Shown here: one piece after another, positions 36,869-47,188 of the stretch
Layout: each line of letters opens with the position of its first letter
How positions within the stretch are numbered: the stretch's first letter is position 1
Assembly: GCA_002691085.1 (NCBI GenBank)
Contig: NZGX01000046.1
Location: 2,364 to 49,551, forward strand
Origin: Rhodospirillaceae bacterium
Lineage (GTDB): Bacteria; Pseudomonadota; Alphaproteobacteria; Rhodospirillales; Rhodospirillaceae
Direction: 5' to 3'
DNA length: 47,188 nt
Notes under the pieces: model-generated
Databases searched by the model: none
What the model was told of the DNA's origin: nothing
The model's input: the letters and a program-made list of their open reading frames with translations, nothing else
Position numbers and translations under genes: made by a program

Positions 36869-37873
36869 TTAATCGCGCCTTGGGTCTTCAATTTCTTTTG
36901 GACTCCAAGGTAATTCAGAAATTTTTCTGGGAGTATAAGATCTCTCTAGCCTTATAAAATCATCATCTACTAAGTCATGGACCGTGGCACTAATAGCATC
37001 TAAAAGGTGATTTTCTTTTGTAACACCAATGATCGGGTTTGCACCTTTATGAATTAACCAAGATATCCCAACCTCGGCTGGTTTTATATTGTACTTTTTT
37101 GCAATAAAAACAACATCATCTAAAACTGGATCGTAAGTATCTCCATAGAGTATATTTTGTACATTTTCATCCTCAGAGCCTCTCTCAGTTTTGGCAGATT
37201 TACTGCCTGCCCTTGCAATTCTTCCCCTTGCAAGGGGGCTCCATGGAATAAGACCCATGCCTTGGTCTTTAATAAAAGGAATTAAGTCTCGCTCATCTTC
37301 TCTATGTAAAAGATTGTAATGATTCTGCATGCAAACAAACCCTTGCCATCCCTGTTCCTTAGCAACTATCTGAGCTTTTGCTAATTGCCAGCAACGCATA
37401 TTTGAAGCCCCAATATAGCGCGCCTTTCCAGATTTTATAACTTGGTGCAACGCATCCATAGTCTCTTCTATTGGGGTCTTTGTATCCCACCTATGGACTT
37501 GATATAAATCAATGCGCTCAACATTTAACCTCTTTAATGAACCATCGATAGAGCTTAAAATATTTTGTTTAGTTAAACCAATTAGATTTGGTGTCTCTGG
37601 GGAAGGATAAAACATTTTTGTAGAAACAATTATTTGATCTCTAAGATTATTCTCCTTTAAGAATCTACCTAAAATCTCTTCACTCTTTCCGCTAGAATAG
37701 ACATTAGCTGTATCAAAAAAATTAATACCCAGATCAAAAGCTTTTTTCATCAACCTCATAGATTGATCACTGCCAACAACCCATTCTCTCCAATTTGGTG
37801 AACCAAAACTCATACACCCTAAGATCACTTTAGAGACTTCCAGTTCAGTATCTCCTAAGAAATTATATTTCAT
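36869..37873 (-). CDS. Aldo/keto reductase
   Basis: 334 aa with LGCMSFG, FDTANVYS, DLYQVHRWD and IGASN motifs. Confidence 0.9.
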   Translation of the reverse strand: MKYNFLGDTELEVSKVILGCMSFGSPNWREWVVGSDQSMRLMKKAFDLGINFFDTANVYSSGKSEEILGRFLKENNLRDQIIVSTKMFYPSPETPNLIGLTKQNILSSIDGSLKRLNVERIDLYQVHRWDTKTPIEETMDALHQVIKSGKARYIGASNMRCWQLAKAQIVAKEQGWQGFVCMQNHYNLLHREDERDLIPFIKDQGMGLIPWSPLARGRIARAGSKSAKTERGSEDENVQNILYGDTYDPVLDDVVFIAKKYNIKPAEVGISWLIHKGANPIIGVTKENHLLDAISATVHDLVDDDFIRLERSYTPRKISELPWSPKEIEDPRRD

Positions 37874-37904
37874 TGAGTTAGTCTCACCTTAGTAATTAAA
37901 AATT

Positions 37905-38669
37905 TCAGAGATCCAAGTATCTCTCTTGCCAGCCATTTATAAGAGGATGTTTTTGGTCAGGGCTAGAATTATCTTTTAAGCCAATAGCATTCATCATTGA
38001 CCAAGCAAGACACATATTTGAAGTAAATACAATAATATTTCTCTCTTTCATAATTTTTTCAACAACACTTAAGCTTGGCATACCTGTTCCTGTCAAAAAC
38101 AATGCATCGACGTTACTTAAGTCAACTTTATACAATGTTTCCAATGCATCTTTAGAAGTTAACTCATAAATAGCTCTTGTATCATCAGAAGAAATTTTAA
38201 TTCTTGTTGCACTTTTTACATCCAAGCCCCTACTAACCCAATAATCTTTGCACATATCAACTGACCACTGTGGGTAAGGAGCACCTATAGCAATTTTAGA
38301 AATTTGCAAAAAATTCATTGCCTGTTCAATCGCTAAACCTGCAGAAATAACTGGATATCCTTTTTCATTAGATAAAAGATCTAAGGCTTTATCTTCCTCA
38401 TCCCTTCCAACGAGATAAGTAGCCGCAGTACAGGCAAAGCCACAAACATCCAACTTAAGGGTATCATATGTTAATAGAGTTTTACCTAGGCTATTAAAAT
38501 ACTCCAAATACCTCTCTTTAGGGTCTTTTCTTTTACTAACGAGACGAGAGGTAATTATAGAAACTTTTCTTGGAAAAAGTGCATACATCTCTGGTTCAAC
38601 TGTTGGGTTTGCTTGTGGAACAGAAACCCCCACCCTACCTAACGAACCATAGTCCCTTTTTACTGACAT
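37905..38669 (-). CDS. Asp/Glu/hydantoin racemase superfamily protein (maleate isomerase / arylmalonate decarboxylase-like)
   Basis: 254 aa. GRVGVSVPQANPTVEPE N-terminus and a first catalytic-Cys motif (GFACTAAT). The second motif reads LTGTGMP, with no Cys. Confidence 0.65.
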   Translation of the reverse strand: MSVKRDYGSLGRVGVSVPQANPTVEPEMYALFPRKVSIITSRLVSKRKDPKERYLEYFNSLGKTLLTYDTLKLDVCGFACTAATYLVGRDEEDKALDLLSNEKGYPVISAGLAIEQAMNFLQISKIAIGAPYPQWSVDMCKDYWVSRGLDVKSATRIKISSDDTRAIYELTSKDALETLYKVDLSNVDALFLTGTGMPSLSVVEKIMKERNIIVFTSNMCLAWSMMNAIGLKDNSSPDQKHPLINGWQERYLDL

Positions 38670-38693
38670 ATTTATAATCCTCCAACCTGCATC

Positions 38694-39866
38694 TTATTCA
38701 TTATCAACACCATTTAGAATTAAATTTATAAAGTATGCATCATCCCATGCAAAATTTATCTCACCTGACCTATATATGCTTAATCTTTCTGAAGGAATAA
38801 AATAGAGTCTTTGCCCTCCTCTCCCTTCAATAAAAAAAACATCTTCTTTTAAATAAGGAGAGGACACTGGAATAATTCTCCCTGAAGGCTTACTAAGTAA
38901 TCTTCCTCCAGAAAACGGAGAACCTCTCCAAATATGCATCGCAAAATTTGGATTCGTATTAGAACCTCTCAACATAATATTAATCCATTTTTCTGAAATC
39001 ACCTGAACACCATCAAGCTTTCCATTGTTAGCAAGCATTGATCCTATGCGAATCCAGTCCATTGCTTTTGTCTGGATACAGCAGAAAACTCTTGCGTCTC
39101 CTCCCTTTCTATCAAGTCTTACTTGAGCAAAGCTCCCTGAAAGAGGTTTCCATAAATTTTCTCTTAAGAATTCTGAGTATCTTCTCCCAGATGATTTAGT
39201 CAGTACAGAATGTAAAGCCTGGCTATTAATATGATTAAAATCAAAAGAAGATCCTGGTTCAAATGCATATCCGATATCCTCCACAAGACTAAAAATATTT
39301 TCTCCAAAAAAAAGCCTTTGACCAAGGGAGAAGGGACTTTTGTTATATTCTATCTGCTTGAGACCTGAAGTCATGTAAAGAAGATTACCAATAGTTATTT
39401 CTTGCCTCTTATCACCTTTCCATTCAGGAATATAATCAGATACTCGAGTATCAATTGATGGAATTAAATTTTTATCTAAAGCAATTACTGTAGCAATACC
39501 CAAAATACCCTTATGCATTGACTGTGAATCGATAATAGTATTCCGGTTATATCCCTCCTTATAATATTCCAGCTCCAAAGATTCATTACGAGAGATTAAT
39601 AAGGCTAAACTATTAAATGACTTTGCATATTCTACGGCAGACTCCAAAGTATCATCACTAATTGTCCTATTATCAGATTTTGTAATTGATAAAGGTATTA
39701 ATTCCCTATTTTCAATAACTTCAATTGGAGAATACCACTGCCAAGAAGTAAGCACCTCACTATCATCTGGCTGTTTAAACCACCTTAGCCAAAAAGTATG
39801 ATCAATATAGAGATAAAAGCTAAGTGGAATAACAACAAAAAAGGGGATAAGGTATTTTTTAATCAA
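38694..39866 (-). CDS. Membrane-anchored serine hydrolase (beta-lactamase / class C esterase family)
   Basis: 390 aa with an N-terminal TM helix, an S-x-x-K motif (SMHK) and an LLYMTSGL motif. Confidence 0.7.
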   Translation of the reverse strand: MIKKYLIPFFVVIPLSFYLYIDHTFWLRWFKQPDDSEVLTSWQWYSPIEVIENRELIPLSITKSDNRTISDDTLESAVEYAKSFNSLALLISRNESLELEYYKEGYNRNTIIDSQSMHKGILGIATVIALDKNLIPSIDTRVSDYIPEWKGDKRQEITIGNLLYMTSGLKQIEYNKSPFSLGQRLFFGENIFSLVEDIGYAFEPGSSFDFNHINSQALHSVLTKSSGRRYSEFLRENLWKPLSGSFAQVRLDRKGGDARVFCCIQTKAMDWIRIGSMLANNGKLDGVQVISEKWINIMLRGSNTNPNFAMHIWRGSPFSGGRLLSKPSGRIIPVSSPYLKEDVFFIEGRGGQRLYFIPSERLSIYRSGEINFAWDDAYFINLILNGVDNE

Positions 39867-39933
39867 GTCATTGCTCCTATAATAATCTAATAATTGTGAA
39901 TAAAAATCATTAACGGTTGTAATAGTCTATCAA

Positions 39934-41055
39934 ATGGAAACACACCTCATGAAAAAAAAATCTATTATTATTATATCTGCATCAATAATTATAAATGCTA
40001 TTGTATTTTCTAACTCAAATGCTCAGTTTTTTGGTGCACCTGAAAAGCATTTTGATGAATACGAAAAACCACCCAAGCCTGATTATAGCAAAGAGTCAAG
40101 TTGGGCGGCTCTTCCAGATCGACAAGATGCTGCTGATGTGTTCCCTGAAAACTCTTTATATAAAGAAAATCAACCTTCTGCAAAAGTTGATGTATTTTAT
40201 ATTCACCCTACAACCTACCGAAATGCAAAAAATTGGAACCAAGATATTAACCTAGAAGAGGTTAATACCTGGACTGATTTAAGCCGTGTTTCTCGTCAAG
40301 GCAGTATTTTTAATGCATGCTGTAAAGTATTTGCACCAAGATACAGACAGGCCGCATTCGGAGCAACATCATCAAAGGAAAGTGGAAAGCTTGCATATGA
40401 CTTCGCCTACCAAGACGTACTAAGTGCATGGAAATATTACATTAATAACTTCAACCATAACCGTCCATTTATAATTGTTGGCCACAGTCAGGGGGCACTT
40501 CATGCCTTCAACTTAATTAAGGAAGAAATTGATAAGTCAAAATATTTTAAAAATATGGTTGCTGCATACATTATTGGTATACCTGTGTTAAAAGGACAGA
40601 TTGAGTTATCAATGAAGAATACTTCAATATGTAAAAAAATATCTGACATAAACTGTATAGTCTCTTGGAATACTTTCACCATGGGTTCTGATGCTTCAAT
40701 TTATAAGAAAATGGCAGTATCTCGTCTCGGTGAAGGACTTGAAGCAAAAGCAGACAAGGGCCTAGTATGCTGGAATCCAACGTCAAATTATATTGATTTA
40801 AACAAAATAAAACCAAACATATCCAATTTGGGGCCTATACCAACAGTTAAAAAAGGTGGAGAACTTCCTGATTTAGCTGAAAAAATCAAAGCTAAATGTG
40901 ATGATGGTATTTTATTTGCCTCTCCACCAAATTCTAAAGAATTTGATTTATTTACCCTTCCAGGAGGAAGTCTTCATATGCACGATATGGAGCTTTTCTA
41001 TGAAAATATAAGAATAAACTCTATTCTGAGATCAAAATACTACACTGTAAATTAA
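39934..41055 (+). CDS. Exported DUF3089-like alpha/beta hydrolase
   Basis: 373 aa with a signal peptide, VDVFYIHPTTY, and a nucleophile elbow (GHSQGA). Confidence 0.6.
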   Translation: METHLMKKKSIIIISASIIINAIVFSNSNAQFFGAPEKHFDEYEKPPKPDYSKESSWAALPDRQDAADVFPENSLYKENQPSAKVDVFYIHPTTYRNAKNWNQDINLEEVNTWTDLSRVSRQGSIFNACCKVFAPRYRQAAFGATSSKESGKLAYDFAYQDVLSAWKYYINNFNHNRPFIIVGHSQGALHAFNLIKEEIDKSKYFKNMVAAYIIGIPVLKGQIELSMKNTSICKKISDINCIVSWNTFTMGSDASIYKKMAVSRLGEGLEAKADKGLVCWNPTSNYIDLNKIKPNISNLGPIPTVKKGGELPDLAEKIKAKCDDGILFASPPNSKEFDLFTLPGGSLHMHDMELFYENIRINSILRSKYYTVN

Positions 41056-41251: not shown

Positions 41252-43687
41252 ATGATGGCAGAAATTTTTAAAGTTGCCATTGTAGGATCAGGACCGGCTG
41301 GATCAAGTGCCGCAGCTAGGGCAGCCAAGCTAGGCATGAGCCATATATTGATTGAGAGACAAGATCATATATCTGATACAATTTTTAAGTATCAGAAAGG
41401 TAAATTTGTCATGGCAACTCCTGATTTTTTGCCTCTTCGCTCTGATTTAAATTTTCAAGCCGGTAAAAGAGAAGAAATATTAGACGTTTGGGATAACGGG
41501 CTAGAGGATTGTAAGGTAAACGTAAAATTTGACACCGAAGTAACAAGTATAAAAAAAGAAAAAAATTTTACTATAACCTATGCAGATGGAAAAACTTGTG
41601 AAGCGGAAAACGTAATTCTATCAATCGGCCTTCAGGGAAATATAAATAAATTACCATGTGAAGGGGCTGAACTTCCCTTAGTACAATATCAACTGGACGA
41701 CCCAGAAGAATATGAAGCTGAAACTATTGTTATTATAGGTGCAGGAGATGCAGCAATTGAGAACGCTGTTGCTTTATCAAAACAAAATACTGTTATTATA
41801 GTCAACAGAAGAGCTGAATTTGCTAGAGCAAAACAAGGCAACCTATCTTTGATAAGTGAGGCAATCGAAAAAGGTAATGTCGAAGCCTACTATGAAGCCT
41901 CCCCAGTTAAAGTTGAAAAAGATTCGATTACCTTAAAAACAGCTGATGGTGAAGCACGTGTACCATGTAATCGGATTATTGCAAGATTAGGAGCATCTGC
42001 CCCAAGACGTTTTGTTGAATCATGTGGGGTTGATTTTCCAGATAAAGAAGAATTAAAAAAAGACCCAAAAAAAAGACCTGACCCTAGAGTACTTCCTGAA
42101 GTTAGTGCTCAATACGAGTCAAATGTACCCGGTCTTTTTATTATTGGGGCCCTTGGTGGATACCCACTAATTAAACAAGCAATGAACCAGGGTTATGAGG
42201 TTGTTGAATATATTGGGGGAAACAAAATTCCTCCGGCGGATGAACCTCTTCTTGTTGAAAAATTCTCTGTCTTAAATAATCAAAATGTAGATGATGTATT
42301 AGAAACAATAAGAAAAAATATTCCTATCTTTGAAAAACTCAATACACTTCTTTTAAGAGAAGCAATACTAGAATCAAATGTTCACGCTTTTAAAAAAGAC
42401 GATACCATTTTTAAGCGTAATGATTACTCCAATACCTTTTATACAATATATGTTGGAGAGGTTGGTATTCTCGTTGATCCAAATGACCCTTCACAAGTCG
42501 TAACACTTAATCAAGGAAACTTTTTTGGCGAAATGGGACTTATCTCAGGCAGAAGACGTGCTGCAACTGTAAAAGCAATATCTGATTGCATAGTTTTTGA
42601 GACCCCAAGAAGGACAATGCTAAAGCTAATTCAATCAGTTGAAAGCGTAAAAGATAATTTAGATAAAGTCTCAATGCTTCGCCAAATTCAAACACACCTC
42701 ACCCCAGGTGTTGATGCTAGTGATTTACAAGAATTAATTGAGACAGCAGAAATAGAAAATTTTTCTGCAGGAGATGTCATTTTTAACCAAGGCGATGAAG
42801 GTGATCATATGCACCTTATCCGATCAGGATCATGTACAGTTTCTGTCAAAGTCGGAGGTAAAGACATTGTACTCAGTTATGTCCCTTCAGGTAATTATAT
42901 TGGAGAAATGGCTTTACTGTCCGACCAACCAAGATCAGCAACTGTCAAAGCTGCTCATAATACCCAAACTATAAGATTAACCGGAAAAGCCTTCAAAGAT
43001 GTTTTGAAAAAAAATAGTAGTATAAAAAATAGTGTTGAAAAGAAGTTTAAAGAAAGAATTAATCAAAATGAAAAAATGGAGGGACAACCCGAGGCAGGAA
43101 ATATTATTCAATTCCTAATAGAGCAAGGCGTTGGTGAAGGAACAGATGTTTTACTGATTGATGAAACTTTATGTATTCATTGTGATAATTGTGAAAAAGC
43201 CTGTGCAGAAACACATGGTGGTTTATCTAGATTAAATAGAGAGGCTGGTCCTTCTTATGCCTCTATACATGTACCGACTTCATGCAGACATTGCGAGCAT
43301 CCTCATTGTATGGCTGACTGTCCTCCCGATGCCATACATAGAGCACCAGATGGAGAGGTCTTCATAGATGATAGTTGTATTGGATGTGGGAATTGTGAAA
43401 GGAATTGTCCATATGGGGTAATTCAATTGGCCGCCCCCCCACCAGAAAGATTTAATTTATTCTCATGGCTGTTGTTTAATAAAGGGCCGCCCCCAGGGGA
43501 TTTAAGAAAATCAACAGATTATAAAAACAAAAAAAAGAAAGATGAAAATCAAATTAAACAAGCCGTTAAGTGTGATATGTGTAAAGATATTGAAGGAGGA
43601 GCATCCTGTGTTAGGGCTTGCCCAACTGGAGCTGCTGCCCGAGTAAGCCCTGAGGAATTCATGTCCATAACAAGCCTTACAAGCTAG
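41252..43687 (+). CDS. Fusion protein: FAD/NAD(P)H pyridine-nucleotide oxidoreductase + 2 cyclic-nucleotide-binding domains + four-cluster [4Fe-4S] ferredoxin module (DmsB/NrfC-like)
   Basis: 811 aa. Contains FAD-binding GSGPAGSSAA and NAD(P)-binding IGAGDAAIENA with VNRR, but no TrxR-type CxxC. The two cNMP phosphate-binding cassettes are FFGEMGLISGRRRAATVKA and YIGEMALLSDQPRSATVKA. The four Cys groups are CIHCDNCEKAC, CRHCEHPHCMADCP, CIGCGNCERNCP and CDMCKD-x6-CVRACP. Confidence 0.85.
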   Translation: MMAEIFKVAIVGSGPAGSSAAARAAKLGMSHILIERQDHISDTIFKYQKGKFVMATPDFLPLRSDLNFQAGKREEILDVWDNGLEDCKVNVKFDTEVTSIKKEKNFTITYADGKTCEAENVILSIGLQGNINKLPCEGAELPLVQYQLDDPEEYEAETIVIIGAGDAAIENAVALSKQNTVIIVNRRAEFARAKQGNLSLISEAIEKGNVEAYYEASPVKVEKDSITLKTADGEARVPCNRIIARLGASAPRRFVESCGVDFPDKEELKKDPKKRPDPRVLPEVSAQYESNVPGLFIIGALGGYPLIKQAMNQGYEVVEYIGGNKIPPADEPLLVEKFSVLNNQNVDDVLETIRKNIPIFEKLNTLLLREAILESNVHAFKKDDTIFKRNDYSNTFYTIYVGEVGILVDPNDPSQVVTLNQGNFFGEMGLISGRRRAATVKAISDCIVFETPRRTMLKLIQSVESVKDNLDKVSMLRQIQTHLTPGVDASDLQELIETAEIENFSAGDVIFNQGDEGDHMHLIRSGSCTVSVKVGGKDIVLSYVPSGNYIGEMALLSDQPRSATVKAAHNTQTIRLTGKAFKDVLKKNSSIKNSVEKKFKERINQNEKMEGQPEAGNIIQFLIEQGVGEGTDVLLIDETLCIHCDNCEKACAETHGGLSRLNREAGPSYASIHVPTSCRHCEHPHCMADCPPDAIHRAPDGEVFIDDSCIGCGNCERNCPYGVIQLAAPPPERFNLFSWLLFNKGPPPGDLRKSTDYKNKKKKDENQIKQAVKCDMCKDIEGGASCVRACPTGAAARVSPEEFMSITSLTS

Positions 43688-43696
43688 GAATAAACA

Positions 43697-44518
43697 GTGC
43701 ATGAATCCCTCCTAATTTATAAAAAATTTAAATACCTTAAATTGACTCTCACCACTGTCATTTTATGTATCGTTTTATATTTGTATCACTCGCCTATTGG
43801 AAGCCCTAATGGGGGAACATGGTTAGGGTATACACTTGGCACACTCGCTGCTTTGATAATGTTTTGGCTAGCATGGTTTGGTGCAAGAAAAAGATCCTAC
43901 AATAAATCAAAAGGGAATCTTGAGGAGTGGGCCTCTGCTCATGTGTATCTGGGTTTAGCTCTAGTAGTAATATCTACTTTACATAGTGGTTTTCAGTTTG
44001 GATTAAATATCCACACGATTTTATATTTCTTAATGATGATAGTAATAATTAGTGGGATTATAGGAGTTTATTTCTATCTAAAATTTCCAAGCCTTATAAC
44101 AAAAAATAGAAATGGTCTGACGACAGAAATGATGTTAACTCAAATTACTGAGATAGATGAAGATATAAGAGAGCTATCAATGTCTCTCGATGATTTTACT
44201 GTTGATTTAATGACAAAAGCAATTGAGGAAACAGTTATTGGAAAAAGTTTTATTATTAAACTTAAAGGAGTTGACCCAGATTGCCATACCTCCTTAGCAA
44301 GAAAACATCTAAGAGAGAAAAAATTTTCTGGAAACAATAAGATTAGAGAGCAGCTTTTATCCAAACTAACTAGAAAAGAGAAAATCTTAGATCAACTGAG
44401 AAATGATCTTAAAATGAGATCTCTTTTACAAATCTGGCTATACATACATGTGCCTTTCACATTTGCTGCACTGGCAGCATTGATAATACATATTTTTTCT
44501 GTTTTTTATTATTGGTAG
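43697..44518 (+). CDS. 5-TM membrane protein with two H-x13-H pairs (putative di-heme b-type transmembrane electron carrier)
   Basis: 273 aa. GTG start with AGGA 6 nt upstream. H82/H96 lie in predicted TM3 (HVYLGLALVVISTLH) and H251/H265 in TM5 (HVPFTFAALAALIIH). A hydrophilic insert of about 110 aa separates TM4 and TM5. Confidence 0.6.
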   Translation: MHESLLIYKKFKYLKLTLTTVILCIVLYLYHSPIGSPNGGTWLGYTLGTLAALIMFWLAWFGARKRSYNKSKGNLEEWASAHVYLGLALVVISTLHSGFQFGLNIHTILYFLMMIVIISGIIGVYFYLKFPSLITKNRNGLTTEMMLTQITEIDEDIRELSMSLDDFTVDLMTKAIEETVIGKSFIIKLKGVDPDCHTSLARKHLREKKFSGNNKIREQLLSKLTRKEKILDQLRNDLKMRSLLQIWLYIHVPFTFAALAALIIHIFSVFYYW

Positions 44519-44524
44519 AATAAA

Positions 44525-46285
44525 TTGAAAATACTTTTTTCACATATCACTAGAAAAAAACGCGGGGGTATTGCAACACGCAATGAGTATGCTGAAGCCG
44601 ATACAATCACGATTGGTAGAAGTACAAGTTGCGAATTAAGTCTTTTAGATCCAAGAGTTCATCTAGAACATGCAAAAGTTGTAAAAAAACTAGATACTTA
44701 TGAAGTGATTGCAGCAGAATATACGCTCATAGAGGTTAATGGGGAACTTGTTGATAAAATAACTTTAAAAACTGGAGATACTTTCCTAGTTGGTCCATAC
44801 AAAATTATTTTTGAAAGTCCTTCTAGTGACGCAGATCTTAAATTATCAATTGAACTTACTAAAAATCTAAGAAACCAGGTCAGTGATCTAATCTCTAGAT
44901 CTAATATTGACTCATCAAACTTTGGTATATCTAAAAGAACATGGTCATGGTCACTTTTCTCAATAATTACTGCACTGTTTCTTATGATTCCTCTCTTAGT
45001 AATAAATTCTTCAAAAGAGAATTTAAGTAGTCTTGACCCAGAGGATCTTAATAAAAGCTCAACAAGCCTAGTTAGCGTTTGGAGTACAGGTGAAATATCA
45101 TCTCCACATAATTTTTTTGCACATGATTGTGAAGTATGTCATGAGAAACCTTTTGTTCCAGTACAAAATAATTCTTGTGCTAAATGCCATGATGATATCC
45201 AACATCATGCAGATACAAAACTTTTCCCAAGTGCGAGTCTGAGTGACTTAAGCTGTCAATCTTGTCATAAAGAACACCAAGGTAAAATAACCGTTGTAAA
45301 GAATAACCAAGATTTTTGTGCAAGTTGCCATGACGCAATCCAAGACGAACCAAATTCTCTACTTCGTAATGTTTCAGATTTTGGGAAAAATCATCCGCAA
45401 TTTAATCCTACTGTAATAATTGATAAAGATAAAAATACAAATAGAAGCCTTTCAATTGGGGGAGATCCCAAACCCATTGAATTCTCCGGGTTGCTTTTTA
45501 ATCACGCCGTTCACCTCAGAGAAACTGGTGTAAGGCATCCTAATGATGGAATAATTGACCTAGAGTGTAAAGATTGTCATGTTTCTGATAGCGGTGGAGT
45601 TTCAATGTTACCAATTTCATTTAAAGAACATTGTAACAGTTGTCACAAACTTTATTTCGACTCATCCCTTCCTGAAAGAGAATTATACCACGGAGATACA
45701 AAAGAACTCTTTATTCAAGTTGAGAATGTTTATAACTCTATTGCATTTCAAGGGGGTTATATAGGGAAAGATGCGCCGAATGTAATCAGGCGACGCGCAG
45801 GCCAGACTCTTAGCCAAACTGAGCGTGTTGAAGCAGCAGAATGGGCAAAAAGAAAAAAAGAACAAGTTCTTGATGGTCGTTTTGGAAAGGATAGGTGTGC
45901 TGAATGTCATCTCATTAAAAACAATGAGGAAAGATGGACAATACAATCAGTAAATATCACAGATAGCTGGTTTCCTAAAGCAAATTTCACCCATGAGAGT
46001 CATGAAGATATGGAATGTATTAGTTGCCATGAAGCAAACAGGTCAGAGCAAGCCACAGATGTAATTCAACCTTCTATAGAAATTTGTCAAAGCTGTCATG
46101 GTGGTGAAAATGCTAGGTCTAAAATTCCATCAACATGTGTGACATGTCATGGTTTTCACTTTGAACATATGTCACCAATCTATCCAATTAATGAGGTCAA
46201 AGTTAAAGAAACGACAATACTCTCAAGCCTTTCAGAGAAGAATCTAGCTTTATTTAACAAAAGAGAAAATAATGAAATACCATAA
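44525..46285 (+). CDS. FHA-domain / single-TM / decaheme c-type cytochrome (cytochrome c3/c7-like)
   Basis: 586 aa with a TTG start. FHA pattern: ITIGRS...HLEHAKV...VNGELV...GDTFLVGPYKIIF. TM helix WSLFSIITALFLMIPLLVI at about aa 141-160. Ten CxxCH motifs between 45128 and 46150: CEVCH, CAKCH, CQSCH, CASCH, CKDCH, CNSCH, CAECH, CISCH, CQSCH, CVTCH. Confidence 0.85.
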   Translation: MKILFSHITRKKRGGIATRNEYAEADTITIGRSTSCELSLLDPRVHLEHAKVVKKLDTYEVIAAEYTLIEVNGELVDKITLKTGDTFLVGPYKIIFESPSSDADLKLSIELTKNLRNQVSDLISRSNIDSSNFGISKRTWSWSLFSIITALFLMIPLLVINSSKENLSSLDPEDLNKSSTSLVSVWSTGEISSPHNFFAHDCEVCHEKPFVPVQNNSCAKCHDDIQHHADTKLFPSASLSDLSCQSCHKEHQGKITVVKNNQDFCASCHDAIQDEPNSLLRNVSDFGKNHPQFNPTVIIDKDKNTNRSLSIGGDPKPIEFSGLLFNHAVHLRETGVRHPNDGIIDLECKDCHVSDSGGVSMLPISFKEHCNSCHKLYFDSSLPERELYHGDTKELFIQVENVYNSIAFQGGYIGKDAPNVIRRRAGQTLSQTERVEAAEWAKRKKEQVLDGRFGKDRCAECHLIKNNEERWTIQSVNITDSWFPKANFTHESHEDMECISCHEANRSEQATDVIQPSIEICQSCHGGENARSKIPSTCVTCHGFHFEHMSPIYPINEVKVKETTILSSLSEKNLALFNKRENNEIP

Positions 46286-46697
46286 GTTTTTTTTAATGAG
46301 TCTTATAATAATTTTAACCTTCACTAAAACTGTAATTAGTGAGACAGTAATATTAGAAAGTGAAGCAAAGTTTTTAGGAAAATTAAGCTCTAAAGACCTT
46401 GAGAGTCAATTTTCAATTAATGTAAAACTCAATGGGGATATTCCACTTGCAACATATGTATCAGCGCGTTTTCAAAATAATCAGCCAAAACAAAGATTAG
46501 CCAATAGTTTATGGATAGATTGGAATGAGAGAGTCGAAACTTTACAGAATAACGGTTTTGCGCCAACTGAAAATGACATGCTAATATTCGATATTTTTGA
46601 GGAGAAGCTTGATTATACTTTCCTACCAATAATTATAACTATCTCATACTTAGGCCATGATAGTTTAAAATCAGGATATTATATAATAGACCAATGA
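46272..46697 (+). CDS. Small exported hypothetical protein
   Basis: 141 aa with a signal peptide (FFLMSLIIILTFTKTVISE). Its start overlaps the cytochrome gene by 14 nt and its stop overlaps the next start (ATGA). Confidence 0.5.
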   Translation: MKYHKFFLMSLIIILTFTKTVISETVILESEAKFLGKLSSKDLESQFSINVKLNGDIPLATYVSARFQNNQPKQRLANSLWIDWNERVETLQNNGFAPTENDMLIFDIFEEKLDYTFLPIIITISYLGHDSLKSGYYIIDQ

Positions 46698-47188
46698 AAA
46701 TACTTTTTTATATTGCCTTTATTTTCTTTACTGTTTTTTATTCAGAAAAAGCTCTTTCTGAATTCCTAAGCATTTCTGATGTTAATCGTATTGTTGGGCA
46801 AGCAAAAGGTGAGGCATCTGCATTAGGTATTAATAATGCTGTAATTGCAATCTCAGACAGAGTTGGCAATATTCTTGCAGTCTATGCAATGAATCCTGAT
46901 GATATACCCAATATTACAATTACTTCAGGAAGAGGTATAGCAATAGGCAATGGACTGGAGAGCCTCTCATTACCAATCACTCCATTGGCCGCAATTTCAA
47001 AAGCAATTACGGGCGCCTATCTCTCTTCTTCAGGTAATGCATTCACTACAAGAACAGCCAGTCAAATTGTTCAAGAATTTTTTAATCCTGGGGAAAAAGG
47101 ACAGCCGGCTGGGCCCCTATTTGGTGTGCAGTTTAGTCAGTTAGCCTGCTCAGATCTAATGAGGTTTGGAGAAAACATTGGCATTGGT
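46694..47188 (+). CDS. Exported GlcG/HbpS-like (DUF336) domain protein, 3' partial (runs off the window)
   Basis: I translated 165 open codons by hand from the ATG at 46694 to the window end. Not in the ORF track because it is open-ended. Has a signal-like N-terminus. LSISDVNRIVGQAKGEASALGINNAVIAISDRVGNILAVY and AISKAITGAY resemble the GlcG/HbpS heme-binding fold family (from memory). Confidence 0.45.
   Translation, partial: MKILFYIAFIFFTVFYSEKALSEFLSISDVNRIVGQAKGEASALGINNAVIAISDRVGNILAVYAMNPDDIPNITITSGRGIAIGNGLESLSLPITPLAAISKAITGAYLSSSGNAFTTRTASQIVQEFFNPGEKGQPAGPLFGVQFSQLACSDLMRFGENIGIG

What the first reader, a model, noticed from the sequence alone, without database searches (positions are those of the whole stretch)
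43697..44518. Unannotatable 5-TM protein carrying two exact H-x13-H pairs in TM3 and TM5
HVYLGLALVVISTLH (H82/H96; codons at 43940 and 43982) and HVPFTFAALAALIIH (H251/H265; codons at 44447 and 44489) each place two His residues 14 positions apart in a hydrophobic helix. This is the geometry used for bis-His ligation of two hemes b across a membrane in ferric-reductase/NOX domains and cytochrome b. The placement on TM3 and TM5 also mirrors NOX-type domains. Here the protein is free-standing, has a roughly 110-aa charged insert between TM4 and TM5, and sits between an FeS flavoprotein and a multiheme cytochrome. That would make it a split NOX-like arrangement.
Basis: partly seen in the sequence, partly recalled or inferred. 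Interest (0 to 1): 0.7.

Follow-up and report, generated by a model that had tools for sequence, protein, structure and literature searches.

The report
Predicted two-haem inner-membrane electron relay
This gene encodes a five-helix inner-membrane protein whose four invariant histidines most likely hold two haems that pass electrons across the membrane, from a cytoplasmic NAD(P)H/iron-sulfur enzyme to a periplasmic ten-haem cytochrome; the family and this reading were already proposed from sequence in 2017 (the PCC3/PCC4 'IMP', later 'PtdF'), but nobody has tested it biochemically.

Summary
ORF 43697-44518 (+) encodes a 273-aa protein with five TM helices, H82/H96 on TM3, H251/H265 on TM5, and a 117-aa charged helical insert. 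Across 248 homologs (down to 31% identity) the four His are 97.6-100% conserved. So are Gly pairs on TM2 and TM4, and a fifth His (H106). Coevolution analysis gives a TM2-3-4-5 bundle with TM3 and TM5 diagonal and the His pairs at matching depths.

In 82 related loci the gene sits in a fixed cluster. Upstream is a TrxR-like flavoprotein with two cNMP domains and four 4Fe-4S motifs. Downstream is an FHA-anchored decahaem, usually followed by an HbpS-like protein, a porin-like protein and a large multihaem cytochrome. Natural flavoprotein-IMP fusions exist.

The idea is not new. He et al. 2017 described this exact signature (5 TM, SGXXG on TM4, two WX3HX13H motifs) for PCC3/PCC4 inner-membrane proteins and proposed two b haems. 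A 2024 preprint names the triad PtdE/F/G.

Membership in FRD/NOX is not supported: five TM instead of six, no Pfam or Foldseek match, and a non-FNR dehydrogenase. "NOX-like" holds only as a functional analogy.

Verdict: a member of a described but experimentally untested family; moderate interest.

The parts
41252..43687 (+). PtdE-like cytoplasmic electron-input protein (811 aa). Residues 1-335: TrxR/YpdA-type FAD/NAD(P)H domain without a CxxC motif. Residues about 350-610: two cNMP-binding domains. Residues 626-811: four-cluster ferredoxin domain with 16 Cys in four motifs starting at C641, C678, C709 and C774.
   Evidence: Pfam and NCBIfam hits. Best PDB relatives are YpdA/Bdr 7a7b (5e-17) for the N-terminal domain and HycB 7z0s_B (3.8e-18), ArrB, PsrB, NarH and FdnH for the C-terminal domain. 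Cys motifs. Found next to the membrane protein in 77-79 of 82 related loci.
43697..44518 (+). The finding: a 273-aa inner-membrane protein (PCC4-IMP / PtdF type), predicted di-haem cytochrome b. It starts 10 nt after the flavoprotein stop codon.
43916..43987 (+). TM3 (residues 74-97) carrying W78-x3-H82-x13-H96. H82 is near the cytoplasmic face and H96 near the periplasmic face.
   Evidence: Motif. H82 and H96 are 100% conserved, W78 96%, and G86 99.6% on the same helical face.
44009..44080 (+). TM4 (residues 105-128) with the S119-G-x-x-G123 motif. It is preceded by the invariant periplasmic N104 and H106 (H106 codon at 44012).
   Evidence: G120 100%, G123 99.2%, H106 98.8%, N104 97.2%. SGXXG is the motif given by He et al. 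2017.
44081..44431 (+). Cytoplasmic 117-aa charged helical insert (residues 129-245), predicted to fold as a helical bundle onto the cytoplasmic extension of TM5. Inferred to be the docking platform for the FeS domain and/or the FHA domain.
   Evidence: AF2 helices 143-161, 166-177, 185-190, 197-207 and 214 onward, with pLDDT 84-94. Insert-TM5 coevolving pairs such as I157-L220, R202-L221 and I150-L234. Charge counts. The docking role is inference.
44432..44509 (+). TM5 (residues 246-271) carrying W247-x3-H251-x13-H265. H251 is near the cytoplasmic face and H265 near the periplasmic face.
   Evidence: Motif. H251 and H265 are 97.6% conserved, with the exceptions mostly gaps.
43820..43894 (+). 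TM2 (residues 42-66) with invariant G44/G48 near the periplasmic side and R64-K65-R66 at the cytoplasmic end.
   Evidence: G44 98.4%, G48 99.6%, R66 99.2%. TM2 coevolves with both TM3 and TM5.
44525..46285 (+). PtdG-like decahaem cytochrome c (586 aa): cytoplasmic FHA domain (residues about 24-98), one TM helix (residues 140-161), and a periplasmic domain with 10 CxxCH motifs (residues 202-542).
   Evidence: Directly downstream in 79 of 82 loci, with the FHA domain detected in 72 of 82.
46272..46697 (+). Small 141-aa protein with an N-terminal hydrophobic signal-like segment. It overlaps the decahaem stop codon. A counterpart was found in 27 of 82 related loci.
   Evidence: No Pfam family matched.
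46694..47188 (+). Start of an exported HbpS-like (PF03928) protein of about 620-660 aa, cut off by the end of the window. In related loci it is followed by a porin-like protein and a large multihaem cytochrome.
   Evidence: tblastn gives 66% identity to the 624-aa protein of L002. That protein matches PF03928 at 2.5e-20. Synteny.

Best explanation
The ORF encodes the inner-membrane subunit (PCC4 'IMP' / PtdF type) of a multi-gene electron conduit. It is a five-helix protein in which TM2-TM5 form a four-helix bundle. TM3 and TM5 sit diagonally, and each supplies two His.

H82 and H251 would ligate a haem b near the cytoplasmic face. H96 and H265 would ligate a second haem b near the periplasmic face, about 14 residues (roughly 21 A) away.

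Proposed electron path: NAD(P)H, then FAD (TrxR-type domain of the upstream protein), then four [4Fe-4S] clusters (its HycB/DmsB-like C-terminal domain, docked on the cytoplasmic face or insert), then inner haem b, then outer haem b, then the decahaem cytochrome anchored alongside. In complete clusters the path continues to a porin-like protein and a large multihaem cytochrome at the outer membrane.

The two cNMP-binding domains on the flavoprotein and the cytoplasmic FHA domain on the decahaem would gate the flow.

Status of each step:
- Shown here: the sequence features, their conservation, the bundle topology from coevolution, the gene linkage and the fusion.
- Inferred: haem binding, the order of carriers, the outward direction, and independence from quinone.
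For: 1. Conservation over 248 homologs down to 31% identity: H82 100%, H96 100%, H251 97.6%, H265 97.6%; G44, G48, G86, G120 and G123 at least 98%; R66 99%.
2. mfDCA on 320 sequences (Meff 239). The top couplings are TM2-TM3, TM3-TM4, TM4-TM5 and TM5-TM2 in consistent antiparallel registers. The only TM3-TM5 couplings in the top 60 (S93-L262, T94-L262) involve L262, which lies on the His-bearing face of TM5, and fall between the two His levels. The registers place H82 level with about residue 250 and H96 level with about residue 264.
3. Positive-inside topology (N-terminus 4 K/R, TM2-3 loop 5 K/R, periplasmic loops 0) puts H82/H251 inside and H96/H265 outside. This is the NOX2 and SpNOX arrangement.
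4. Sub-threshold but consistent hits to two-haem cytochrome b families: PF01292 in 46 of 47 members (best 2.4e-7), DUF4405 in 21 of 47, PF01794 in 9 of 47.
5. Synteny in 82 loci: Fer4 domain 79, flavoprotein 77, decahaem 79, always same strand and order at fixed offsets. Gaps are largely explained by contig ends or by the flavoprotein sitting at the operon end in L063 and L076; L068 lacks the upstream genes on the sequence held.
6. P0171 is a natural flavoprotein-FeS-IMP fusion. He et al. report another in Oceanospirillum beijerinckii.
7. The FeS domain is of the four-cluster type that wires catalytic subunits to membrane anchors (HycB, PsrB, NarH, FdnH). The flavin domain is YpdA/TrxR-type-FNR-like and has no CxxC.
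8. Independent literature reached the same di-haem reading.
Against: - There is no biochemical evidence for haem in any family member.
- Neither AF2 model (full length, or insert-deleted with pTM 0.80) finds a significant structural relative among solved di-haem proteins. NarI and cytochrome b561 appear only at E > 2 with TM-scores of 0.39-0.43.
- No Pfam family reaches its threshold for the query.
- Direction and quinone independence rest on thermodynamic reasoning and gene linkage only.
- He et al. favoured a quinone-coupled, inward (Fe(II)-oxidising) model. Related IMPs in PCC3 and in PCC4 subgroup I lack the Fe-S gene.
Confidence: 0.65

Rival explanations
1. Quinone-coupled cytochrome b. 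The protein exchanges electrons with the membrane quinone pool, as FdnI, HyaC, NarI or cytochrome b of bc1 do. It would act as a quinol:decahaem oxidoreductase, or as a quinone reductase fed by the decahaem (Fe(II)/Mn(II) oxidation) or by the FeS protein. This is the model drawn by He et al. 2017.
For: The best Pfam similarity is to PF01292, whose characterised members react with quinones (the quinone reactivity is my own knowledge). He et al. proposed it. Related IMPs in PCC3 and PCC4 subgroup I lack an Fe-S partner gene, so they need another redox partner.
Against: In this family the flavoprotein/four-cluster gene is in the cluster wherever the contig allows it to be seen, usually 10 nt upstream and sometimes fused. 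That points to a dedicated cytoplasmic partner. No quinone-site motif was identified. This rival is not exclusive of the best explanation, since a three-way junction is possible.
Confidence: 0.2
2. True but very divergent member of the FRD/NOX superfamily: a homologous 'split NOX' that lost TM6 and swapped its dehydrogenase.
For: The His placement (TM3 and TM5, 2+2, x13 spacing) and the topology match NOX2 and SpNOX. PF01794 gives weak hits in 9 of 47 members. UniRef labels P0075 'Ferric reductase like transmembrane component'.
Against: There are five TM helices, not six. PF01794 hits are weaker than PF01292 hits. hhalign against MsrQ, as a single sequence and as an alignment, found nothing, though the MsrQ profile had low diversity. 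No FRD, NOX or STEAP structure is among the 50 best Foldseek hits for either model. The dehydrogenase is not FNR-type.
Confidence: 0.15
3. Non-redox membrane scaffold or anchor that only holds the decahaem and the FeS protein together, as suggested for the Ferrigenium homologue. Alternatively, the His residues bind a metal ion rather than haem.
For: The Ferrigenium preprint found no redox motif in InterPro and proposed a binding-platform role. No solved-structure relative was found here.
Against: Four intramembrane His at exact x13 spacing, preceded by conserved Trp and flanked by invariant Gly on the neighbouring helices, stay invariant to 31% identity. This is the established bis-His di-haem signature and is hard to explain for a scaffold. 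Without a membrane-spanning cofactor, the FeS clusters and the c haems on opposite sides of the membrane could not exchange electrons.
Confidence: 0.05

Closest known systems
Inner-membrane proteins (IMP) of the putative porin-cytochrome clusters PCC3/PCC4 (He et al. 2017, Front Microbiol 8:1584, PMC5566968)
   Same: Five TM helices, SGXXG on TM4, and two WX3HX13H motifs on TM3 and TM5. All are present here: W78/H82/H96, S119-G123, W247/H251/H265. PCC4 subgroup II has a PF13247 Fe-S gene directly upstream and a 10-haem cytochrome, and occurs in marine Alpha-, Gamma- and Zetaproteobacteria. The window matches this.
   Different: That paper did not describe the flavin, cNMP or FHA modules. It drew a quinone-coupled, inward (metal-oxidising) model. 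A direct sequence comparison with their IMPs could not be made because their sequences are not held. The family is a prediction only, with no experiments.
PtdE/PtdF/PtdG of the ptdABCDEFG operon (bioRxiv 10.1101/2023.11.21.568154, marine ODZ Alphaproteobacteria UBA11136)
   Same: The triad is the same: a cNMP-binding 4Fe-4S protein, a 'transmembrane ferric reductase-like' protein, and a periplasmic decahaem. A porin and further multihaem cytochromes lie in the same cluster. Locus L078 reproduces the A-G gene order.
   Different: In the window and most relatives the order is E-F-G-(small)-HbpS-like-porin-MHC. The tetrahaem gene is not adjacent in the window. The last cytochrome usually has 10 CxxCH and an LVIVD region rather than 5. 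The equivalence is inferred from composition, not from sequence alignment.
Ferric reductase domain superfamily (NOX, FRE, SpNOX, MsrQ/YedZ, STEAP; Pfam PF01794)
   Same: Two b haems are held by two His on TM3 and two on TM5, with the inner haem from the first His of each pair. The N-terminus is cytoplasmic, and a TM2-TM5 bundle encloses the haems. Electrons come from cytoplasmic NAD(P)H through a flavin and go to an acceptor outside.
   Different: FRD domains have six TM helices; this protein has five. NOX TM5 spacing is x12. No significant sequence or fold match was found. The NOX dehydrogenase is a fused FNR-type FAD/NADPH module. Here it is a separate TrxR-type flavoprotein with four FeS clusters and cNMP domains. 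The acceptor here is a multihaem cytochrome, not O2 or Fe(III) directly.
Prokaryotic cytochrome b561 / Ni-hydrogenase and formate-dehydrogenase cytochrome b (Pfam PF01292: FdnI, HyaC, CybB), with the FdnH-FdnI pairing
   Same: This is the best, though sub-threshold, Pfam similarity. A four-cluster ferredoxin-type subunit delivers electrons to a di-haem membrane cytochrome b, as FdnH does to FdnI. FdnH is among the PDB relatives of the FeS domain.
   Different: PF01292 proteins have four TM helices with His on TM1, TM2 and two on TM4 (my own knowledge). They react with quinone. In Fdn-N the FeS subunit is periplasmic. Here the FeS domain is cytoplasmic, because it is C-terminal to a signal-less flavoprotein.
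FHA-nonahaem 'NHC' cluster of Ferrigenium straubiae (bioRxiv 10.64898/2026.01.22.701106)
   Same: The same triad: a [4Fe-4S] protein, a five-TM protein, and an FHA-anchored multihaem cytochrome. It was expressed under all conditions tested.
   Different: The authors found no redox motif in the five-TM protein and treated it as a possible scaffold. Their cytochrome has nine haems. The organism is a betaproteobacterial Fe(II) oxidiser.

Membership tests
PCC3/PCC4 inner-membrane protein (He et al. 2017) | Five predicted TM helices | tested here: met
   Hydropathy and AF2 helices.
PCC3/PCC4 inner-membrane protein (He et al. 2017) | Two WX3HX13H motifs, one on TM3 and one on TM5 | tested here: met
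   WASAHVYLGLALVVISTLH at residue 78 and WLYIHVPFTFAALAALIIH at residue 247. W78 is 96% and W247 95.6% conserved.
PCC3/PCC4 inner-membrane protein (He et al. 2017) | SGXXG motif on TM4 | tested here: met
   S119-G-I-I-G123. G120 is 100% and G123 99.2% conserved.
PCC3/PCC4 inner-membrane protein (He et al. 2017) | Encoded in a cluster with multihaem cytochromes and a porin. For PCC4 subgroup II, a PF13247 Fe-S gene lies upstream and a 10-haem cytochrome is present. | tested here: met
   PF13247 hit at 1e-9 in the upstream protein and 10 CxxCH in the downstream protein. A porin-like protein of about 600 aa with no Cys, and a further MHC, are present in 54-56 of 82 related loci. The window ends before these genes.
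PCC3/PCC4 inner-membrane protein (He et al. 2017) | Sequence homology to the published PCC4 IMPs | not testable with these tools
   The published IMG sequences are not held, and the supplement text did not contain them.
Ptd operon, PtdF (bioRxiv 10.1101/2023.11.21.568154) | Membrane 'ferric reductase-like' protein between a cNMP/4Fe-4S protein (PtdE) and a decahaem (PtdG) | tested here: met
   The L078 gene order matches A-G.
Ferric reductase domain superfamily (PF01794; NOX/FRE/MsrQ/STEAP) | Four canonical haem-ligating His, two on TM3 and two on TM5 | tested here: met
   Definition taken from PMC3591440.
Ferric reductase domain superfamily (PF01794; NOX/FRE/MsrQ/STEAP) | Six TM helices | tested here: not met
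   Five helices are predicted, and the C-terminus ends 2-3 residues after TM5.
Ferric reductase domain superfamily (PF01794; NOX/FRE/MsrQ/STEAP) | Match to the PF01794 profile or to family members | tested here: not met
   The query does not hit PF01794. Only 9 of 47 relatives do, at E >= 0.0029. hhalign against E. coli MsrQ and an MsrQ alignment gave probability below 1%, though that alignment had low diversity (Neff 1.4).
Ferric reductase domain superfamily (PF01794; NOX/FRE/MsrQ/STEAP) | Fold similarity to solved FRD structures | tested here: not met
   Foldseek against PDB with the full-length and insert-deleted models gave no hit at E < 0.1. No NOX, DUOX, STEAP or SpNOX chain is in the 50 best hits. 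Foldseek is weak on all-helical membrane bundles, so this counts as 'not shown' rather than 'excluded'.
NADPH oxidase (NOX) enzymes | FNR-type FAD/NADPH dehydrogenase module (PF08022/PF08030) fused to or partnered with the TM domain | tested here: not met
   The partner is Pyr_redox_2/3, YpdA/TrxR-like, with 2 cNMP domains and four 4Fe-4S motifs.
Prokaryotic cytochrome b561 / Ni_hydr_CYTB (PF01292) | Score above Pfam's gathering threshold | tested here: not met
   25.1 bits against a cut-off of 30.1. There are sub-threshold hits in 46 of 47 relatives (best E 2.4e-7), and some relatives carry a precomputed PF01292 label. hhalign against E. coli YodB found nothing.
Any di-haem cytochrome b | Binds two haems b by bis-His ligation | not testable with these tools
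   This needs purified protein or a ligand-aware structure.

The most novel reading that the evidence does not exclude
The PtdE-F-G module may be a quinone-independent, NAD(P)H-driven transmembrane electron exporter. That would make it a bacterial functional analogue of eukaryotic NOX/FRE, assembled from unrelated parts: a TrxR-type flavoprotein, a four-cluster ferredoxin, a five-TM di-haem b protein and a decahaem. Its output would be switched by cyclic nucleotides (two cNMP domains) and by phospho-threonine signalling (the FHA domain on the cytochrome's cytoplasmic tail).

The module occurs in at least 591 species, including abundant marine Alphaproteobacteria such as SAR116 and Rhodospirillaceae. 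It could therefore underlie extracellular metal reduction, or the unexplained extracellular superoxide production of marine heterotrophs.
Probability: 0.3. Interest if true: 0.75.

Novelty: new member of a known kind. Interest (0 to 1): 0.4.

Why it matters
How electrons cross the inner membrane in the widespread but uncharacterised PCC3/PCC4/Ptd multihaem clusters is an open question. This family is the only candidate for the membrane-spanning step.

The cluster occurs in at least 591 species genomes of 185,579 scanned. It is transcribed in ocean oxygen-deficient zones and in Fe(II)-oxidising cultures.

If the flavoprotein-FeS protein really feeds the di-haem protein directly, this is a regulated route that links cytoplasmic NAD(P)H to extracellular acceptors without passing through quinones. 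That would change how redox budgets, metal cycling and possibly extracellular reactive-oxygen production are assigned in marine bacteria.

What this analysis adds to the literature:
- Conservation statistics over 248 sequences.
- Bundle topology derived from coevolution.
- Identification of the input module as TrxR-type FAD plus four clusters, rather than the two clusters reported for PtdE.
- A natural flavoprotein-FeS-IMP fusion.
- A fifth invariant His (H106).
- A negative result for FRD/NOX membership.

Tried and rejected
1. Sequence search of the PDB with the single protein and with a 47-sequence profile gave only coiled-coil noise, such as ATP synthase b at E 0.12.
2. Foldseek of the full-length AF2 model against PDB gave nothing significant. 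The top hits are long helical sensor bundles such as TorS and McpS.
A spliced query with full-length homologs was accepted (pLDDT 84.7, pTM 0.80). Foldseek again found nothing at E < 0.1, with NarI and cytochrome b561 only at E > 2.
4. hhalign of the family profile against single E. coli MsrQ and YodB sequences found nothing.
It returned only enterobacterial sequences at 84-100% identity. The resulting profile had Neff 1.4 and hhalign found nothing. This was a poor use of the search, so the third search was not spent on PF01292 for the same reason.
6. AF2 model coordinates are not exposed, so His-His distances could not be measured. mfDCA was used as a substitute.
7. Supplement text of He et al. 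2017 and of the Ptd preprint did not give sequences or organism lists that would allow a direct identity check.
8. H31 and C196 looked conserved among close relatives but fall to 56-59% in the wider set. They were rejected as essential residues.
9. Inward electron flow to NAD(P)+ was considered and judged unlikely by inference. It is uphill in redox potential for Fe(II)-type donors, and it moves negative charge into the negative cell interior.
Full report
**Observation.** The ORF at 43697-44518 (+) starts with GTG 10 nt after the stop codon of the upstream gene and encodes 273 aa. His codons are at 43940, 43982, 44447 and 44489 (H82, H96, H251, H265). These are the only His pairs 14 residues apart in the protein. 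Hydropathy and an AlphaFold2 model (47-sequence alignment, mean pLDDT 84.6) agree on five TM helices at about 5-31, 42-66, 74-97, 105-128 and 246-271. A 117-aa helical, charged insert (22 K/R, 18 D/E) lies between TM4 and TM5. Lys/Arg counts (N-terminus 4, TM2-3 loop 5, periplasmic loops 0) put the N-terminus, the RKR loop and the insert in the cytoplasm. H82 and H251 therefore lie near the inner face, and H96 and H265 near the outer face.

**Conservation.** The family is large. There are 1416 hits at 90% clustering, 3498 representatives at 50% clustering, and at least 591 species genomes. These are mostly Alphaproteobacteria (Rhodospirillaceae, SAR116, Oceanibacterium, Zavarzinia, Sphingomonadales), with some Gamma- and Betaproteobacteria. 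Almost all are annotated 'hypothetical'. In 248 near-full-length members (31-98% identity to the query), H82 and H96 are 100% conserved and H251 and H265 97.6%, with the exceptions mostly gaps. Also conserved at 97% or more are G39, G44, Y45, G48, L58, R66, S80, G86, N104, H106, G120, G123, P131 and P253. H82, G86, L89 and H96 fall on one helical face. The Gly pairs sit on the two helices that do not carry His: G44/G48 at the periplasmic end of TM2 and G120/G123 at the cytoplasmic end of TM4. That is where porphyrin rings held between TM3 and TM5 would need room. This last point is inference, by analogy with cytochrome b.

**Geometry without coordinates.** The structure tool does not expose coordinates, so I ran mean-field DCA on 320 sequences (Meff 239). 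The strongest long-range couplings are TM2-TM3 (F61-A79, A51-I92), TM2-TM5 (A59-T255, M55-A258), TM4-TM5 (I115-F254, I105-I264) and TM3-TM4 (L87-I121, V90-I117). Each set has a consistent antiparallel register. This describes a closed four-helix bundle TM2-3-4-5 with TM3 and TM5 diagonal. The only TM3-TM5 couplings in the top 60 are S93-L262 and T94-L262. L262 lies on the His-bearing face of TM5, and the pairs fall between the two His levels. Averaging the registers through TM2 and through TM4 places H82 level with about residue 250 and H96 level with about residue 264, which matches H251 and H265. This is the arrangement solved for SpNOX, where TMs 2-5 enclose two haems ligated by His pairs on TM3 and TM5. 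It supports the geometry but does not prove haem binding. Insert-TM5 couplings also show that the insert is a folded domain packed on the cytoplasmic extension of TM5.

**Surroundings.** The upstream gene (41252-43687) encodes an 811-aa protein with no signal peptide. It has three parts:
- A YpdA/TrxR-type FAD/NAD(P)H domain without a CxxC motif. Best PDB match is 7a7b at 5e-17, and TrxR-type ferredoxin-NADP reductases also match.
- Two cNMP-binding domains.
- A C-terminal domain with 16 Cys in four 4Fe-4S motifs. Its closest solved relatives are HycB (7z0s_B, 3.8e-18), HDCR HycB3/4, ArrB, PsrB, NarH and FdnH. These are the four-cluster relay subunits that wire enzymes to membrane anchors.

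The downstream gene (44525-46285) encodes a protein with a cytoplasmic FHA domain, one TM helix (residues 140-161) and ten CxxCH motifs. After it come a small exported protein (46272-46697) and the start of an HbpS-like exported protein, which is cut off by the end of the window.

**Linkage.** In 82 related loci, tblastn finds the Fer4 domain in 79, the flavin and cNMP parts in 77, the decahaem in 79 and its FHA domain in 72. They are always on the same strand and in the same order at nearly fixed offsets. Most absences are contig ends. In two Hyphomicrobiales-like loci the flavoprotein has moved to the end of the same operon, and L068 lacks the upstream genes on the sequence held. Most loci continue with:
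- an HbpS-like protein of about 650 aa;
- a protein of about 600 aa with no Cys, a signal peptide and a C-terminal aromatic residue, which looks like a porin;
- a multihaem cytochrome of 1150-1340 aa with 10 CxxCH motifs and an LVIVD region.

Some loci also have a divergent tetrahaem gene. One 50%-cluster representative (P0171, 1110 aa) is a continuous flavoprotein-cNMP-FeS-IMP fusion with all the motifs intact.

**Prior descriptions.** He et al. 2017 (PMC5566968) defined two putative porin-cytochrome clusters, PCC3 and PCC4. They noted a conserved inner-membrane protein with five TM helices, SGXXG on TM4 and two WX3HX13H motifs on TM3 and TM5. They compared it with the ferric reductase domain and with cytochrome b, and proposed two b haems. 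PCC4 has 4-, 5- and 10-haem cytochromes. Its marine subgroup II has a PF13247 Fe-S gene just upstream of the IMP, sometimes annotated as one gene with it. The window protein has exactly this signature: W78-x3-H82-x13-H96, S119-G-x-x-G123 and W247-x3-H251-x13-H265.

A 2024 preprint (10.1101/2023.11.21.568154) named the same type of cluster ptdABCDEFG. PtdE is a cNMP protein with 4Fe-4S clusters, PtdF a 'transmembrane ferric reductase-like protein' and PtdG a decahaem. The function is described as 'completely unknown'. Locus L078 shows that gene order. A 2026 preprint on Ferrigenium straubiae found the same triad, highlighted the FHA-multihaem combination as unprecedented, saw no redox motif in the five-TM protein and suggested a scaffold role. 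I found no biochemical study.

**Family membership.** Pfam gives only sub-threshold matches, all to two-haem cytochrome b families:
- PF01292: 25.1 bits against a cut-off of 30.1 for the query; 46 of 47 relatives hit it, best E 2.4e-7.
- DUF4405: 21 of 47 relatives.
- PF01794: 9 of 47 relatives, best E 0.003.

That these families form one Pfam clan is my recollection, not a test made here. Searches of PDB sequences, hhalign against E. coli MsrQ and YodB, and Foldseek with two models all found nothing significant. For the TM-only model (pTM 0.80), NarI and cytochrome b561 appear at E > 2 with TM-scores of 0.43 and 0.39. No NOX, STEAP or FRD chain is among the 50 best hits.

Against the published FRD definition (six TM helices; four His on TM3 and TM5; an FNR-type dehydrogenase in NOX and FRE), the protein meets the His criterion. 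It fails on helix number, profile match, fold match and dehydrogenase type. I therefore file it with the PCC4-IMP/PtdF family. It works like an FRD or cytochrome b, but it is not shown to be a member of either.

**Mechanism.** The best-supported reading is a transmembrane di-haem relay. Electrons pass from NAD(P)H to FAD, through four 4Fe-4S clusters, to the inner haem (H82/H251), to the outer haem (H96/H265), then to the decahaem and on to the outer-membrane components.

The sequence signature, its conservation, the bundle topology, the obligate gene linkage and the fusion are shown here. Haem binding, carrier order, direction and quinone independence are inferred.

I favour outward flow for two reasons. 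NAD(P)H is the lowest-potential couple in the chain. Moving electrons from the negative to the positive side of the membrane goes with the membrane potential, whereas the reverse would be uphill on both counts.

Such a reductant-spending, potential-dissipating path would need tight control. That fits the two cNMP domains and the FHA domain, but this too is inference.

The main rival is a quinone-coupled cytochrome b, as drawn by He et al. It cannot be excluded and may coexist with the main model.

**Verdict.** It repeats a published prediction, and the NOX relationship is an analogy. The remaining value lies in the untested biochemistry of a very widespread module, and in its unusual regulatory domains.

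Noticed in passing
window 44006-44014 (N104, H106): A fifth invariant His (H106, 98.8%) and N104 (97%) lie in the periplasmic TM3-TM4 turn 'HSGFQFGxNxHT'. They are outside the two H-x13-H pairs. They may contact the outer-haem propionates, dock the decahaem, or act as an extra ligand. Unexplained.
   Followed up: partly
window 44525-46285: The decahaem cytochrome c has a cytoplasmic N-terminal FHA (phospho-threonine-binding) domain before its single TM helix. The FHA domain is present in 72 of 82 related loci. A 2026 preprint calls this combination unprecedented. It implies Ser/Thr-kinase control of an electron conduit.
   Followed up: partly
window 41252-43687: The upstream protein combines a TrxR/YpdA-like FAD/NAD(P)H domain (no CxxC), two cNMP-binding domains, and 16 Cys in four 4Fe-4S motifs. 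The Ptd preprint reports two clusters. In locus L002 the same protein is split into a 542-aa and a 267-aa gene.
   Followed up: partly
P0171 (1110 aa; not in the window): This is a natural single-polypeptide fusion of the flavoprotein, cNMP, FeS module with the complete five-TM protein, and all His motifs are intact. Whether it is a true fusion or a gene-calling read-through was not checked at the DNA level.
   Followed up: partly
window 46272-46697 and 46694-47188: A small 141-aa protein with a signal-like N-terminus and no known family overlaps the decahaem stop codon. It is followed, with a 4-nt overlap, by the start of a secreted protein with repeated HbpS-like (PF03928) domains, which is cut off by the window end. 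Both belong to the same operon in related genomes.
   Followed up: partly
loci L003, L015, L020, L032, L066 (about +6.7 kb from the IMP): The last cytochrome of the cluster is 1150-1340 aa with 10 CxxCH motifs plus an LVIVD (beta-propeller) region, and has a faint MtrC/MtrF-domain hit. The preceding protein of about 600 aa has no Cys, has a signal peptide, and ends in ...LILTY like an outer-membrane barrel.
   Followed up: partly
window 36869-41055: The genes upstream of the cluster (aldo-keto reductase, Amdase-like, beta-lactamase-like, DUF3089) are in the same order as in the Rhodospirillaceae MAG loci L002 and L003. With 34.6% G+C and housekeeping genes elsewhere in the window (SMC, glycine cleavage P, threonine synthase, histidinol dehydrogenase), the window looks like chromosome from a low-GC marine alphaproteobacterium.
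   Followed up: no
window 44282-44290 (C196, T198): The 'DPxCxT' motif in the cytoplasmic insert is nearly invariant among relatives above 44% identity but only 59-64% conserved in the wider family. It may be a lineage-specific regulatory or docking site; T198 could be a phospho-site for the FHA domain, which is speculation.
   Followed up: no
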